From: Octopus vulgaris
Lineage: Eukaryota
Assembly (NCBI GenBank): GCA_951406725.2
Contig: OX597818.1
Coordinates: forward strand, 50,344,001 to 50,408,000
DNA length: 64,000 bases
Direction of reading: 5' to 3'
Positions 2,353 through 15,321 of the stretch are shown here, piece by piece. Numbering within the stretch: the first letter of the stretch is position 1; each line of letters begins with the position of its first letter. The position numbers are program-made.

Positions 2353-5300
2353 CAACTCGATATCGTTATACGTAGCACTTATCGCCCACTAGATGCTCCA
2401 AATCATACGGACCTATTCGAAGACTGTCTTGGAAGAATAGAAATCTTAACCAATCTAGAACAACACAACAGTGTACTTCTTATGGGAGACTTCAGCCTGT
2501 CCAACGTATGATGAACTGAGGAACTTTTCCTCTCAGAAATGACACAATGTACTCAAAATGAGGTGGAAATCCCTGCTCAGCTACGCCAACATGTTATACA
2601 TAGAGCAAGTAATACTCTAACCAACCAGGCAGATAGTAGACTTGATCTCTGTTTCACAAACAATGTGGATTTCGTCCATAACGTGAAAGTTACACCGACG
2701 TTAGTCCCGGATGAAATGTAATAGTGCTGACCAAGTATAAACCAAAAAAATCCGAAGACGATCGGCTTATGGGGAGTACCTAAAAACTATCCAATTTCAA
2801 TCTTTATAAAGCAGACTGGAAATCAATTGAGAAAGAGATAATCAAATAAGATTGGCCTCAATGTCTCGGTACTTCTGACAACATGAAATTCAAAGAATTC
2901 GTGCTCATAATGCAAGATTGTCCCAGAGAGAAAGGCCACTACACATAGGAGCAAGATTCTCAGAGAGGTAACAGTTCTTATGAGATGGCGTACAAAGAAT
3001 TCATACTGCCCCATCAAAGAAGAGGGCGTAACACTGTCTATAGATGATGTCAACGTAAACTTAGCTGCTGGTCCAAAATAATTGTAATAGATTTCATCGT
3101 CGGAATCCATCTTTAATCTCCCTTCTGCCAACATTTCAAATATAAGATTTCTTTCCTGAAGACGGGGGCTCGTCTCGTCTGACGTTGGAATCAATTTCCT
3201 CCGTCTTCAGGGAAGAAATCTCACATTTTTAAAATCTAAAAACGAAAAGGAAGTGAGATAACTCCAATAATGGTATCACGTGATATATTATATTGAAAAC
3301 CATCAAGATATTGTTATCATCTATCCATAGGTTTTGGTTATCGAACAGTAACAGATTGTTACTAGTAACAGATTTTGATTAATTATTAAGTTATAAAACG
3401 TATCGTTATCACCAGTAGATTTTAGTCTTCAACGATATGATAAATGTTATTTCTGTTCCCATTGTTCACTTGGTGTTCTTCATTATAGTCCGTAAAAAAC
3501 AGTTTATTATATTGCGGAGAAGATTTTTCTTCTAGGACTTCATATGATTCCTCACTAATGTTTCTTGTGTTCGTTGTTGTAGTACTTTTATCCGATTCCT
3601 TACTATTGCAGAAGGAAGAAGATATCTAAAATAAAATAAAAAGAAGATATATAGATCATGGTAGATGGCTGGATGGTAGAATCGGTCGCCTATTACTATT
3701 TTGTTACATTTCTTTACGTTTCGAGTTCAAAACCCACCTAAGTCTACATTTTATTTTATCTTTCCGATGTAACAAAACAGAGGCCAATTGTTTAAAGTGA
3801 AGCTCCGTCTGATTGTTATAGCAGCTAAATGTTCCTCAAACTACACCTTACCACGCACTATCTTCCAAAGGATAAGATGTCCTCTACCGGAACGCATTTG
3901 ATCATGGATTTTATGGGGTTCTTTCGTTTCTAATTCAATTTCTTGATGTTTAGCGTTATGTCTATCGCGAACGAAAAGCTGTGAACATCTCTTGATATAT
4001 ATATCAAGTAATAACGGGGAGAAAGAAGATGAGCTTCATTGAGAAGGTGAGATGTAATGTTGAAGATATCCAGTTCTTCATTTCGAATTCGAATTTTTTT
4101 CCTTTACCAATTTCACTGAAACCATTAACAGTTCTCTGAAACGCTTAACAGTCACAACTAGTCTGAATACATGCAACAGCGCAGCCTCTGCAAAAGGGGC
4201 GAAACAGTCATGCAGTGGTGATAGTTGAAGCATTCCGTCGGTTACGACGACGAGGGTTCCGGTTGATCCGAATCAACGGAACAGCCTGCTCGTGAAATTA
4301 ACGTGTAAGTGGCTGAGCACTCCACAGACACGTGTACCCTTAACGTAGTTCTCGGGGATATTCAGCGGGACACAGAGAGTGACAAGGCCGGCCCTTTGAA
4401 ATACAGGTACAGCAGAAACAGGAAGTAAGAGTGAGAGAAAGTTGTGGTGAAAGAGTACAGCAGGGATCACCACCATCCCCTGCCGGAGCCTCGTGGAGCT
4501 TTAGGTGTTTTCGCTCAATAAACACTCACAAAGCCCGGTCTGGGAATCGAAACCGCGATCCTATGACCGCGAGTCCGCTGCCCTAACCACTGGGCCATTG
4601 CGCCTCCACGCAGTGGTGATAACACAAAGAGGAACAGAGAAGCTCTTCTCGTTTCAGTCTAATTTTCCCTCACATGTCTTTGGTCGACTGGAGGCTATGG
4701 TAGAATAGACTTGTCCCAGGTGCCGTGCAATGAGATCGCCCATTATATTGTGAAAAAACAAAAAATAACAACATATATATTTCTTTACTACCCACAAGGA
4801 GCTAAACACAGAGGGGACAAACAAGGACAGACAAACGGATTTAGTCGATTACATCGTCCCTAGTGCGTAACTGGTACTTAATTTATCGACCCCGAAAGGA
4901 TGAAAGGCAAAGTCGATCTCGGCGGAATTTGAACTCAGAACGTAACGGCAGACGAAATACGGCTACGCATTTCGCCCAGCGTGCTAACGTTTCTGCCAGC
5001 TCGCCGCCTTGTAAAAAAAAACAACATATAAATTAGGCATGTATAATAAAAAGGGGAAAGAGGGAAAGGAGGAGAGGGGAGGAAAGAGAGAAGAAGAGAG
5101 AAGAAAAGAGAAGGGAGAAATAGAGACAAAGAAGAAGAGAGTAAGTACTAACCATGGTTTCATCGATTTCTTCATACGTATGATTGTTCTCATTTACATA
5201 TTGAACATTAGAACTGGCGAATTTATCATCTGGAGTTGAGTTTCGTCTGGAGGAAATACCAAATGAATATCATTAAGTGGTACGTGAACGGCAAGATCTG

Positions 5301-7876
5301 TAAGGCATCGGTTAAAATATTTTGAGGGATTTAGTGTACGTTTATTTACGTTCTGGGATCTTTTCGGTTTGAACGGCAGTTTTTTAAAATAATTTCCACG
5401 TAACTAAACACTTTTAAGCTTCGTATACTGGTAGAATGTGTTTATAAAACATCTTTTTCTCTTGGCTTTATTGAGAAAATTCTATAGTTTGTAAGATATT
5501 TGTTGTTTTTTTTTCTTCAATTTCTGCAATTTCAACCAATCACGGACGTCTATTGAGGTAAAAAAAACATTCTGTGCCGTATGACTATGTCCCTCGTTTA
5601 AGAAACAGATTGGGTTGATTTACATTTGTGAAGAAAAAAAAAGATACCCTTCCCCCACCCCTAACCCTAACCCTAACCCTAACCCTAAAACAGATTGAAA
5701 TGCAATAGATCGATACTAGGGTCATAATTATGGGTGACAATTTCATATGATACCGCTAGAAAAAACTTCCGTTCAAACAGAAAAGATCCACGTTCTGATT
5801 TCAAATACCAACCAGGTCTTCTTCCAGAAAAATCAAAGAAATATTAAACCAGCATGAATGGGGATCCCAACGGGATTATTAGGCGAAAGGCTGACAACAT
5901 CTATGTTGATATGTATGTGGTATCCATAACGAAGACACTTACTTATGGCGAGTACAGTCCACTATAAATAGCTTTCATAGATTTGTAAAATTTGTTGTTG
6001 TAAAGAATAGGAGTACTGTAAATTAGCGAGTGTTTCCTTAATTCTTAATGTTTGGTTCGAGTGTTGTTTTTCTGGAGTAAACCGGCCGCACACTGATGAA
6101 GTAGTCAACTTCAAACAAGAAATACGGATAAGCGATGGATTTGTAGACTGAGTGAATAAACTGACCAACACAATTTAGTTACGTTTATCTACACTTTGAA
6201 TTCCAATCCCTCTGAGATACGGATTTCAATGAGTCAGTTAAAGTTTAATCTACCTCTGATTTGGCGTTAAAATAAGACATGGATGACTAAGACCCTTTTC
6301 AAAGAGTGGTTTACGAAAGCTTTTTGTCCTGCCGTAGAAAGGTTCAGTGCCAGACACAACATTTCCAACAAAGCTTTGCTTATTTTAGACGATGCACCGA
6401 GCCATCTAGCAAACTTAGACGACATTTTGGATAATGTGAAAGTAGACTATATCCCCCAAAATACAACCAAGGGGAAAAAGCTAAGTTTCTATACTGAGCT
6501 GTGCAATGGTGCATCATAAACAACAAACAACTTTGGATACGTTCTCCCACCCCACCCAAGCTGATTGTCGTGATAACGAAGTATAAGATATTAAATATTG
6601 TCCTTCATCCCCCTAGTAACGCTCATTCCACCCCCAACCCTCACACAGTAGCCAATATCTTTTGCGGTAAGAACATACTCTTACAATGTCGCAATTCTTA
6701 TTAATTCCCTAACTGGGTTCCTCTTGAAATGGTTTTTGGTTTCAATTACAATATTTGTACCGTTAATGTTTGGAAACTATTTTTATTACACATGAGAGTG
6801 AGAACACTTTGAGATATTTTTGGTATCTAACATATGTCAGATACTGCGAGCGCTGCTTCTGATTGATCAATCCATGGTGATGACCCGAGGTCACGGTGAC
6901 AGCGCTGCTTCTGATTGGTCAATCCATGGTGATGACCTGAGATCACGGTGACGGCACTACTTTTGTCATTCATAAGTTACAACTAAACGTGAAGAATTTA
7001 GTTATTGGGTTAATAAAATATGGTCGTTTATTCGTGTGTAATAAATAAAATACTAAACTCATTCCCTATGGATACCGTATTTATTACAACGAGTGGCTTG
7101 TAAATGTATCTAACTCGCTTTCGCTCGTTAGATACGTTTACAAGCCACTCGTTGTAATAAATATGGTATCCATAGGGAATGAGTTTGGTATTCTCTATTT
7201 ATGTATAATGGCGATCGTTTTCCTTATCCTCTCTTGTTTTCTTGTGTTTCTTTGTCTTCCAAAAAGTGTCCGTAGGAACGCAATCTAACTTGATAATATA
7301 AAAATCAATTTTGCATTACAGAATTTGGTGTTACGGAAAGATTTTTAGGAACGCCCTACGTTCGTAAAGCGAAGGATTCTTGTAAAATAAACGGTAATAA
7401 CGAAACAGAAACTTTACTTACTTTCGCCTAAATGATATCCATAAAATTAAGAAGAGAATAAATATGATCGCTAATACCAAAAAAGTGGCCAAAGAAGCAA
7501 CCAGTGTTATAGTGGTTTCTGGTGTTAGAGTAGTGGTTGTTGTTGACTCCTTTTCCGAATGGGTATCTAAAAATGTTTGTATTTTATCCCTGTTCCAAGA
7601 TTTAAAATCTTCGGGCCAGATCTCACGGCATTGAGTGTCATTAACTGTGAGAAAAAAAAAATTAAATAGAGGCAAATTAGTATTCTTTTATTCGATATTT
7701 GTTCCAGTCATCTGACTGTGGCCATGCTGGAGCACCGCCTTTAGTCGAACAAATCGACCCCAGGACTTATTCTTTGTAAGCTTAATACTTATCCTATCGG
7801 TCTCTTTTGCCGAACCGCTAAGTTACGGGCCTGTAAACACAGTAACATCGGTTGTCAAGTGATGATGGGGGGACAT

Positions 7877-14179: not shown

Positions 14180-14247
<68 letters not shown>

Positions 14248-15321
14248 GGAGAGAGAAAGAGAGAGAGAGAGAATTATGTGTATATGTGTGTGTATGTGTG
14301 TGCGCATGCGTAACTTACGATTGAGTATTGGATTAATAAGTAGTTGTGTAATTCAATGTAATGTTACAGATTGCATAACTTACATGGAATATTGATGCCG
14401 CATCGAATCCAAGGTTTATCCTGGCATTGTCCAACATCAAGCACACAGGTTCTATTTAGCGCAATTGTACCAGCTCCACAATGCATATGATTACCGTGGT
14501 TATAATATTTCGTGCAAATGCATGGATCAATTTGGAAAGGAAGGCTCTTTTTCGAATTACAAATGGTAAAATCTGAAAAAATAAAATTGTAGCTTTCTCT
14601 TGACTCTTACGTGGAAGAGTAATACTTTGTACTAGACAGTACTACATAACATACAATAGTCGTCCAAGAATTTGGACCTGGAGATCTCCATTTCCAGCGA
14701 CTTCGAGGGCCACCTCCCAGTGGTGTCGGACATCAACGAGGAGCCTTCGACTACAACAAGACGACCAAAGTGTAATTTTTCCAAGGTCCGGGATCTCCCG
14801 CCCCTAAGCCCTAGACCATCATCTAATCACCCTTACCCGTCTTGTTGCTTAACAACAACAATAACATACAATAAAACACAAACAGATCGGTATAGTCCAC
14901 ACTATCTCAGGTTAATAGACGTGCTGTTTCCTCCATCTGTCTTTCTATCGCTCCTCCCTAACATGTTTGTTACAAACCTGGATTGCTGACTGGCTGTCAT
15001 GGCTAGTCTCATGTTATTCTTTCAATTAAATCCTCCCTGATGAACTCAAATCTGCTCTCCCGCTCGCCACCGAAGAGAAACAATCAAACCCTAATAACTA
15101 TTCGGCAATACCATCAGAAAACCTTTCATCTGCTGTGGCAAATAACAATAACTTATGGACTTTATTTACATCATTTTCATTATTTACATTTGACGGATAT
15201 TTGTCCTCATCTTGTTTGTTGTTAACACAACGTTTCGGCTGATATACTCTCCAGCCTTCATCAGGTGTCTTGGGGAAATTTCAAACCTAGCTTCTCATTC
15301 CTAAGGTATTTTTCGATATTA

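What the first reader, a model, noticed from the sequence alone, without database searches (positions are those of the whole stretch)
3422..14572. Hidden ITAM-bearing type I receptor with a chitin-binding-like Cys ectodomain
Seen: four minus-strand exons with canonical GT/AG sites and consecutive phase fit (1-1, 1-2, 2-0, 0-stop). They give an 8-Cys ectodomain, a Thr stalk, a TM helix and a ~100-aa tail with YVN, YEEI, EES-YEVL-x7-YNKL and YHIV. Established: YxxL-x6-8-YxxL is the ITAM bound by Syk/ZAP70/Shark tandem SH2, pYEEI is the Src SH2 optimum, pYxN binds Grb2, and CBM14 folds bind chitin. Inference: a glycan/chitin-sensing activating immune or phagocytic receptor in a mollusc. I do not recognise this domain combination as a named family.
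Basis: partly seen in the sequence, partly recalled or inferred. Interest (0 to 1): 0.92.

Follow-up and report, generated by a model that had tools for sequence, protein, structure and literature searches.

The report
Octopus membrane protein with ITAM tail
This is a real but unstudied Octopus vulgaris gene, already in public annotation, for a small single-pass membrane protein whose tail carries a conserved immune-type tyrosine signalling motif; that makes it a candidate cephalopod immune receptor, but the chitin-binding and signal-peptide claims do not hold.

Summary

**Not hidden.** A public Octopus vulgaris "hypothetical predicted protein" (P0001, 239 aa) matches all four exons at 100%. 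It adds a 10-nt coding first exon (MGK) at 24173-24182.

**Family.** Exon-by-exon searches found 11 proteins from O. vulgaris, O. sinensis and O. bimaculoides. They share an invariant membrane helix and a conserved tail, with variable Cys-rich N-termini.

**Motif conservation.**
- The strict ITAM (YxxL-x7-YxxL) is present in 8 of 11.
- The YEEI tyrosine is present in 9 of 11.
- The YVN tyrosine is present in only 2 of 11.

**Second copy.** A tandem copy in the window (37-51 kb) is broken by a frameshift and by a stop inside the ITAM.

**Not supported.**
- No model has a signal peptide. Flanking charges predict N-out, C-in, so this would be type III rather than type I.
- CBM_14 never appears in any Pfam scan output. 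Profile comparison gives 8% probability. Both AlphaFold models are unusable at pLDDT 41.

**Verdict.** This is a genus-restricted, uncharacterised ITAM-tailed receptor or adaptor family. Its signalling role is inferred, not shown.

The parts
24173..24182 (-). Copy A, coding part of the first exon (ATGGGAAAAG, giving M-G-K plus the first base of Asp), followed by a GT donor.
   Evidence: Pattern search. Matches the MGKD start of P0001. An in-frame stop lies 16 codons upstream.
14384..14572 (-). Copy A exon 1 of the finding: 62 full codons with 7 Cys, the variable Cys-rich module.
   Evidence: 100% match to P0001 residues 4-66.
7422..7644 (-). Copy A exon 2: the eighth Cys, the conserved membrane-proximal module (QC..IWP..W), the Thr/Pro stalk, the transmembrane helix and SFRR.
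   Evidence: 100% match to P0001 residues 68-141.
7436..7504 (-). Coding stretch for the transmembrane helix LVASLATFLVLAIIFILFLILWI. The segment LVLAIIFILFLILWISFRRK is invariant in 11 of 11 family proteins.
5153..5246 (-). Copy A exon 3: juxtamembrane tail with YVN and YEEI.
5165..5176 (-). Codons for YEEI. The Tyr is kept in 9 of 11 family proteins and the Ile in 11 of 11.
3422..3625 (-). Copy A exon 4: 67 codons plus TAA. Holds the ITAM and the C-terminal YHIV.
   Evidence: 100% match to P0001 173-239 and to O. sinensis P0009 174-240.
3500..3544 (-). Codons for the ITAM, YEVL-EEKSSPQ-YNKL.
51177..51186 (-). Copy B first coding exon (ATGGGAAACG|GT, MGN).
45924..46113 (-). Copy B exon 1. It is 190 nt, with one extra base 5 nt into the exon. 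Read in the phase set by the first exon it gives FNNL then a stop.
38911..39157 (-). Copy B exon 2, with an in-frame 24-nt duplication that adds one TTLTPETT-type stalk unit.
37962..38055 (-). Copy B exon 3: NVN and NEEI, so both tyrosines are replaced by Asn.
37323..37421 (-). Copy B exon 4 up to a premature TAA after YENL. The second ITAM half (YNKL) is still readable after the stop.
   Evidence: P0003 ends at YENL.

Best explanation
The locus is a genuine five-exon Octopus vulgaris gene. It is already in public annotation as an unnamed hypothetical protein of 239 aa.

**Family.** It belongs to a family found here only in the genus Octopus. Members are small single-pass membrane proteins with this layout:
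- a variable Cys-rich N-terminal module;
- a conserved membrane-proximal Cys pair with an IWP motif;
- a Thr/Pro stalk of variable repeat number;
- an invariant transmembrane helix;
- a roughly 100-aa acidic tail whose family consensus is ...YEEI...EE(S/T)YExL-x7-Y(D/N)KL...YH(I/V)V.

**Topology (inferred).** There is no signal peptide. The protein is predicted to insert as a type III signal-anchor, with the N-terminus outside and the tail in the cytosol.

**Mechanism (inferred).** Clustering of the ectodomain by an unknown ligand lets a Src-family kinase phosphorylate the tail, with pYEEI as its docking site. The doubly phosphorylated ITAM then recruits the tandem SH2 domains of a Syk- or Shark-type kinase. 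This is how vertebrate ITAM receptors work, and it is what was reported for oyster CgIgR with CgSyk.

**Shown versus inferred.**
- Shown: gene structure, family membership, motif conservation, absence of a signal peptide, and the charge asymmetry across the helix.
- Inferred: topology, phosphorylation, kinase recruitment, ligand, and any immune role.
For: **Gene model.**
- Exons, splice sites and phases are as described.
- P0001 is identical over all four exons.
- The first exon was located.

**Family.** Eleven family proteins come from three Octopus species.

**Motif conservation.**
- Strict ITAM in 8 of 11.
- First Tyr 11/11, its +3 Leu 10/11.
- Second Tyr 10/10, its +3 Leu 9/10.
- The 7-residue spacing is kept in all 10 proteins that reach the second Tyr.
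- YEEI Tyr 9/11.
- C-terminal YH(I/V)V in 6 of the 6 that reach it.

**Modular evolution.** The transmembrane helix and tail stay conserved while the N-terminal exons differ beyond alignment between paralogues.

**Topology.** The charge difference across the helix is +2 to +5 (C side positive) in 11 of 11. The stalk has mucin-like Thr/Pro repeats of variable copy number.

**Precedent.** ITAM-Syk signalling is reported in a mollusc (PMC6994640, passages read). Invertebrates are said to carry one Syk-like gene plus SHARK (PMC10253181, passages read).
Against: - **No signal peptide.** None of the four models checked for hydropathy has an N-terminal hydrophobic segment, so surface display of an N-terminal domain of about 113 aa rests on the charge rule alone.
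- **ITAM broken in 3 of 11.** O. bimaculoides X1 has YEDQ. O. sinensis X4 has YDNW. The window's own copy B has a stop.
- **Key positions not exceptional.** Of 98 tail columns, 59 are at least 90% conserved, and all sequences come from one genus. Motif-specific selection is therefore not demonstrated.
- **Weak constraint between copies.** A versus B gives dN/dS of about 0.70 on small counts.
- **Missing hallmarks.** There is no charged residue in the helix and no juxtamembrane Cys.
- **Not checked here.** Expression, phosphorylation, and the presence of Syk or Shark in Octopus.
- **Unknown ectodomain.** The fold and the ligand are unknown.
Confidence: 0.5

Rival explanations
1. The gene is real, but the tyrosine motifs are not an ITAM signalling unit. 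YEEI, YEVL, YNKL and YHIV are all YxxPhi motifs. They could act as AP-2-type sorting or endocytosis signals, or simply be conserved along with the rest of the tail. The protein would then be a mucin-like adhesion, trafficking or structural membrane protein.
For: - All four conserved tyrosines have a hydrophobic residue at +3.
- The ITAM positions are no more conserved than the tail in general: 59 of 98 columns are at least 90% conserved.
- The strict ITAM is lost in 3 of 11 proteins, two of which keep an open frame.
- An ITAM-pattern match arises by chance in 0.29% of shuffles of this peptide. That would give many chance matches across a proteome.
Against: - The two tyrosines and their exact 7-residue spacing are kept in every protein that reaches them.
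- Acidic residues precede the first Tyr, as in canonical ITAMs (the consensus is recalled).
- YEEI co-occurs with the ITAM in 8 of the 8 ITAM-positive proteins.
Confidence: 0.25
2. The topology is inverted (type II). The N-terminal Cys-rich part starting MGK is cytosolic and the C-terminal part is lumenal or extracellular. The invariant RRKR after the helix would be a furin-type site that releases a secreted, glycosylated C-terminal peptide, and the tyrosine motifs would be irrelevant.
For: - None of the four models checked for hydropathy has a signal peptide.
- All but three of the 11 models start with Met-Gly.
- Several paralogues have strongly basic N-termini.
- RRKR (RRKQ in one) directly follows the helix in 11 of 11.
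- The tail also holds Thr runs and NxS/T sequons.
Against: - The charge difference favours C-in in 11 of 11.
- The RRKR abuts the helix, which leaves little room for a protease (inference).
- Eight conserved Cys and a Thr/Pro repeat stalk on the N side look extracellular.
Confidence: 0.07
3. One reading: the ectodomain is a diverged CBM14 (peritrophin-A) fold that binds chitin or glycans.
For: - The local hhalign alignment places PC.C.KYY against the CBM14 C..FY.C stretch, and C.I.I.F....QC..IWP against CP.GL.FD.....C.WP.
- P0004 has CTKYYSC.
- Paralogues carry a further Cys after IWP.
Against: - CBM_14 is absent from every Pfam scan output at E <= 10: 4 exon peptides, 11 family proteins (25 of 34 families shown) and P0004.
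- hhalign probability is 8.3% local and 0.1% global.
- The spacing between the second and third Cys is 1 residue, against 5 in the recalled CBM14 consensus.
- The exon-1 module is the least conserved part of the family.
Confidence: 0.07
4. The locus is not a working gene: either a decaying or annotation-only model, or repeat-derived sequence.
For: - The neighbouring copy B is broken twice.
- A versus B gives dN/dS of about 0.70.
- P0001 is only a 'hypothetical predicted protein'.
- The introns are full of transposon remnants.
Against: - Copy A is intact with canonical splice sites.
- Open, alignable orthologues and paralogues exist in three species, with 64-69% identity to O. bimaculoides over exons 2 and 4 and no frame breaks.
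- The transmembrane helix is invariant across the family.
Confidence: 0.05

Closest known systems
Vertebrate ITAM-bearing receptors and adaptors (CD3 zeta, FcR gamma, DAP12, Ig alpha/beta, Fc gamma RIIA); recalled knowledge
   Same: A single-pass protein whose tail carries acidic residues followed by YxxL-x7-YxxL. This is the pattern bound by the tandem SH2 domains of Syk or ZAP-70 after Src-family phosphorylation.
   Different: - No sequence homology was found: PDB profile search best E 0.23, Pfam hits all below cut-off.
- No signal peptide.
- No charged residue in the helix for pairing with a partner.
- An orphan Cys-rich ectodomain.
- Function untested.
Oyster CgIgR with CgSyk (PMC6994640, passages read)
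   Same: A mollusc membrane receptor with a 'classical ITAM' in its tail. It is reported to co-precipitate with a two-SH2 Syk kinase and to drive ERK phosphorylation and phagocytosis. This is the best precedent that the proposed mechanism exists in molluscs.
   Different: CgIgR has five extracellular Ig domains. The octopus protein has an unrelated small Cys-rich domain and no detectable homology, and no experiment exists for it.
Drosophila Draper with Shark (recalled; cited in the passage of bioRxiv 10.1101/046789 read)
   Same: An invertebrate phagocytic receptor that signals through an ITAM to a tandem-SH2 kinase.
   Different: Draper is a large EGF-repeat type I receptor with a longer ITAM spacer. 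It is not related in sequence.
Transmembrane adaptor proteins LAT, PAG, NTAL, SIT (recalled)
   Same: Type III membrane proteins that lack a signal peptide and have tails carrying several SH2-docking tyrosines, including YxN and Src/Csk-type sites.
   Different: Those have very short ectodomains and a juxtamembrane CxxC palmitoylation site. Here the N-terminal part is about 113 aa with 8 Cys, and there is no juxtamembrane Cys.
CBM14 / peritrophin-A chitin-binding domain (Pfam PF01607)
   Same: A small Cys-rich extracellular module with an aromatic pair after a Cys, and a C..WP-like stretch.
   Different: Not detected by the Pfam model, hhalign probability 8%, and Cys spacing that differs from the recalled consensus.

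Membership tests
ITAM-bearing receptor/adaptor (motif class) | YxxL/I-x6-8-YxxL/I, usually preceded by acidic residues | tested here: met
   EESYEVL-EEKSSPQ-YNKL in exon 4. The pattern is present in 8 of 11 family proteins.
ITAM-bearing receptor/adaptor (motif class) | The motif lies in the cytoplasm | tested here: inconclusive
   The charge difference across the helix favours C-in in 11 of 11. No topology predictor or experiment was available, and there is no signal peptide.
ITAM-bearing receptor/adaptor (motif class) | Both tyrosines are phosphorylated and bound by the tandem SH2 domains of a Syk-, ZAP-70- or Shark-type kinase | not testable with these tools
   Needs phosphopeptide binding or co-precipitation.
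Type I membrane protein | A cleavable N-terminal signal peptide | tested here: not met
   The highest 19-residue hydropathy over windows starting in the first 30 residues is 0.48 or less in the four models tested. An in-frame stop lies 16 codons upstream of the ATG. Eight of the 11 models start MGK or MGN.
CBM14 / peritrophin-A | A match to the Pfam CBM_14 model | tested here: not met
   No CBM_14 row at E <= 10 for the four exon peptides, P0001-P0003, the 11 members of A7 (25 of 34 families listed), or P0004 and P0009.
CBM14 / peritrophin-A | Six-Cys spacing and profile similarity to real CBM14 domains | tested here: inconclusive
   hhalign of 4 ectodomains against the 3 CBM14 domains of P0006 gives probability 8.3% (local) and 0.1% (global). 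The C-x1-C spacing contrasts with C-x5-C in the consensus, which is recalled.
CBM14 / peritrophin-A | The CBM14 fold | not testable with these tools
   Both AlphaFold2 models have mean pLDDT 41, and the ectodomain scores 28-52. The fold search was therefore not run.
Transmembrane adaptor proteins (LAT/PAG type) | A very short ectodomain and a juxtamembrane palmitoylation CxxC (features recalled) | tested here: not met
   The N-terminal part is 60-164 aa with 3-12 Cys. The only tail Cys lies about 40 residues after the helix.

The most novel reading that the evidence does not exclude
Octopuses evolved their own family of ITAM receptors, unrelated to any known one. Its features would be:
- signal-peptide-less (type III) proteins encoded in a tandem array;
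- fast-changing Cys-rich ectodomains on an invariant helix-plus-tail signalling cassette;
- alternative or duplicated tail exons giving motif-complete forms (YEEI plus ITAM) and motif-poor forms (NEEI, YDNW, or truncated).

This would be a paired activating/decoy receptor system, analogous to but independent of vertebrate KIR-, Ly49- or Fc-receptor clusters.
Probability: 0.15. Interest if true: 0.8.

Novelty: new variant of a known kind. Interest (0 to 1): 0.45.

Why it matters
Cephalopod immunity is poorly known at the receptor level. ITAM-Syk signalling in molluscs has so far been tied to an Ig-domain receptor in oyster (PMC6994640).

A genus-restricted, tandemly duplicated family combining a conserved YEEI-plus-ITAM tail with variable ectodomains would be a concrete, testable entry point into activating receptors of octopus haemocytes. 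It would also be an example of convergent assembly of an ITAM receptor from lineage-specific parts.

If the motifs turn out to be sorting signals, it is simply one more orphan membrane-protein family.

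Tried and rejected
**Searches that found nothing useful.**
- Exon 1 against 1.84 billion representatives gave only P0001 and P0004 as real relatives. P0005-P0008 scored through repeated short stretches. BLASTP checks of P0005 and P0006 aligned no query Cys to a Cys outside insignificant 2- to 7-residue matches. All four were dropped.
- ESM Atlas look-alike search of residues 1-100 of P0001: no usable hit.
- PDB profile search with alignment A6: best E 0.23 (neuroplastin, helix region), nothing for the ectodomain.
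- Rfam and tRNA scans of the window: 0 and 0.

**Weak Pfam hits.** TMEM51 matches 11 of 11 members, with best E 3.2e-4 and 17-19 bits in the two members whose score was shown, against a cut-off of 25.5. It covers the helix and tail. The members are near-identical there, so I treat it as composition-driven.

**Structure.** Two AlphaFold2 runs (6 and 11 sequences) both gave mean pLDDT 41. I therefore did not run fold search, whose matches would be meaningless. Complex prediction was not used because no partner sequence was in hand and phosphotyrosine cannot be modelled.

The spliced model was searched exon by exon. I made no joined model of my own and searched with none. Full-length analyses used the public proteins that the exon searches returned.

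- RNA-seq junction support.
- Supplementary tables of papers, which are closed and might list these loci in expression studies.

Full report
**Observation.** On the minus strand the four stretches 14572..14384, 7644..7422, 5246..5153 and 3625..3422 each follow an AG. The first three are followed by GT. In frame offsets 2, 2, 1 and 0 they read open for 62, 73, 31 and 67 residues, and the last ends at TAA. The translations hold 7 + 1 Cys, a Thr-rich stretch, the helix LVASLATFLVLAIIFILFLILWI followed by SFRR, then YVN, YEEI, EESYEVL-x7-YNKL and YHIV.

**The gene is already annotated.** I searched the model exon by exon. I made no joined model of my own and searched with none. The exon-1 peptide returned P0001, a 239-aa "Hypothetical predicted protein [Octopus vulgaris]". 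So the window is O. vulgaris, and the gene is not hidden.

P0001 starts MGKD. The pattern ATGGGNAANGGT finds the missing first coding exon at 24182..24173, against 0.09 matches expected by chance. An in-frame stop lies 16 codons upstream of that ATG.

**A second, broken copy.** All four exons recur upstream on the same strand, at 46.1, 39.1, 38.0 and 37.4 kb. They lie inside a segmental duplication whose non-coding blocks are mostly 88-97% identical. Exon conservation between the two copies therefore proves little on its own.

Copy B has several lesions:
- One extra base sits 5 nt into exon 1. Read in the phase set by its own first exon (51186..51177), the exon gives FNNL and then a stop.
- Exon 3 has Asn in place of both tyrosines.
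- Exon 4 reads TYENL, then a stop, then EESSPRYNKL.

The public model of copy B (P0003, 180 aa) accordingly starts at an internal Met and ends at YENL. Summed exon by exon, A versus B gives Sd 12.2 over 136.7 synonymous sites and Nd 32.8 over 520.3 non-synonymous sites. That is a dN/dS of about 0.70 on small counts.

**A family in three Octopus species.** The exon-4 and exon-2 searches added these proteins:
- O. sinensis LOC115211618 isoform X2 (P0009), whose exon-4 stretch is 100% identical to the window's;
- O. bimaculoides LOC106874494 isoforms X1 and X2 (P0010, P0011);
- O. sinensis LOC115211728 (P0012) and LOC115211668 (P0013, P0014);
- two further O. vulgaris proteins (P0015, P0016).

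In the 11-protein alignment the segment LVLAIIFILFLILWISFRRK is invariant. Of 98 tail columns, 43 are invariant and 59 are at least 90% conserved. The N-terminal exons differ so much that some cannot be aligned.

A HMMER search of exon 1 against 1.84 billion representatives found only P0001 and a 68-aa fragment, P0004, as true relatives. Within what I could search, the family is restricted to Octopus. None of the four locus names occurs in the paper library.

**The ITAM.** The pattern Y..[LI].{6,8}Y..[LI] is present in 8 of 11 proteins. The three exceptions are:
- P0010, with YEDQ...YNKL;
- P0002, with YENL...YDNW;
- the truncated P0003.

Position by position:

| Position | Conserved |
|---|---|
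| First ITAM Tyr | 11/11 |
| Its +3 Leu | 10/11 |
| Second ITAM Tyr | 10/10 |
| Its +3 Leu | 9/10 |
| YEEI Tyr | 9/11 |
| YVN Tyr | 2/11 |
| YH(I/V)V | 6 of the 6 that reach the C-terminus |

The 7-residue spacer is kept throughout. The ITAM and YEEI are therefore family features, while the Grb2-type YVN is not.

Three caveats apply. The key positions are no better conserved than most of the tail. All sequences come from one genus. The pattern arises in 0.29% of shuffles of the exon-4 peptide, which would give many chance hits across a proteome.

**Topology.** Hydropathy was computed for four of the models (P0001, P0009, P0002, P0010). In each, only one hydrophobic segment passes 1.6, and the highest value over windows starting in the first 30 residues is 0.48. 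There is no signal peptide, so the type I claim fails. The 15-residue flanks of the helix give a charge difference of +2 to +5, positive on the C side, in 11 of 11. By the charge-difference rule (recalled) this predicts N-out, C-in, which is a type III protein. That is inference, and an inverted topology is kept as a rival.

**Ectodomain.** CBM_14 does not appear in any Pfam scan at E <= 10 (in one search, 25 of 34 families were listed). Profile comparison of four ectodomains with the three real CBM14 domains of P0006 gives 8.3% probability locally and 0.1% globally. Two AlphaFold2 runs gave mean pLDDT 41, with 28-52 over the ectodomain. No fold comparison was therefore made. The chitin inference is unsupported, though not excluded.

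**Mechanism and comparison.** The best reading is a receptor or adaptor whose tail is phosphorylated by a Src-type kinase docking on pYEEI, and whose ITAM then recruits a Syk- or Shark-type kinase.

The paper evidence is as follows. I read passages only, not whole texts.
- In oyster, an ITAM-bearing Ig receptor is reported to bind CgSyk and drive ERK and phagocytosis (PMC6994640).
- Invertebrates are said to have one Syk-like gene plus SHARK (PMC10253181).
- Syk homologues are reported in molluscs (bioRxiv 10.1101/046789).

Whether Octopus has these kinases was not checked here. The protein is not a homologue of any known ITAM receptor. It differs from the LAT/PAG-type adaptors in its large Cys-rich N-terminal part and in lacking a juxtamembrane Cys.

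**Verdict.** This is a correct observation of a real gene that is already predicted in databases. The ITAM reading is strengthened by family conservation. The type I, chitin-binding and Grb2 parts are not supported. It is a new variant of a known kind and worth an expression and binding test, but every functional step is still inferred.

Noticed in passing
window 24183-24540 and 51187-51544 (minus strand, upstream of the two start codons): About 358 bases just upstream of the ATG, including a (GA)n run, are 100% identical between copies A and B, while other non-coding blocks are mostly 88-97% identical. This suggests recent gene conversion or a constrained promoter/5' UTR.
   Followed up: partly
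window 10936-11481 (-) and 42035-42520 (-): Tc1/Tc3-type transposase remnant (Pfam HTH_Tnp_Tc3_2, E 4.9e-19 for the first) inside intron 1 of both gene copies.
   Followed up: partly
window 29432-30805 (+) and 30729-31328 (+): A 457-aa open frame with a reverse-transcriptase domain (RVT_1, E 3.6e-7), followed by a 199-aa Cys-rich frame with no Pfam hit. They lie between the two gene copies and are probably a retroelement.
   Followed up: partly
window 16224-17006 (-) and 47374-48081 (-): Open frames of 260 and 235 aa, kept in the first intron of both copies, with no Pfam hit for the first. They look like part of a retroelement.
   Followed up: no
window 2823-3206 (-) and 36626-37078 (-): Open frames of 127 and 150 aa lie just 3' of exon 4 on the same strand and are open in both copies. 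The first has no Pfam hit. Whether this is 3' UTR, a mobile element or a separate gene is unknown.
   Followed up: no
window 50660-51155: A run of about 0.5 kb of purine-rich GAA/GAG-type simple repeat lies immediately downstream of copy B's first exon, seen as poly-E/K/R frames in the ORF list. Many other TA/CA/GA microsatellites occur across the window.
   Followed up: no
public proteins P0010/P0011 (O. bimaculoides LOC106874494 X1/X2) and P0009/P0002 (O. sinensis LOC115211618 X2/X4): Isoforms of one annotated locus carry different tail exons. In O. bimaculoides they share the N-terminus and helix. In O. sinensis the Cys-rich exon differs as well. One tail has a complete ITAM and the other a broken one. 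This suggests either transcripts that mix exons of tandem copies, or merged gene models.
   Followed up: partly
alignment A7 (all 11 family proteins): Pfam TMEM51 is hit below its cut-off by 11 of 11 members (best E 3.2e-4; 17-19 bits in the two members shown, against 25.5) over the helix and tail. This is probably composition-driven, but a distant link was not excluded.
   Followed up: no
window 14384-14572 versus 45924-46113, compared with P0009 and P0002: The exon-1 peptide is 92% identical between the two O. vulgaris copies but only about 67-70% identical to either O. sinensis form. The tails instead pair A with X2 and B with X4. This suggests concerted evolution of the ectodomain exon within each species.
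   Followed up: partly
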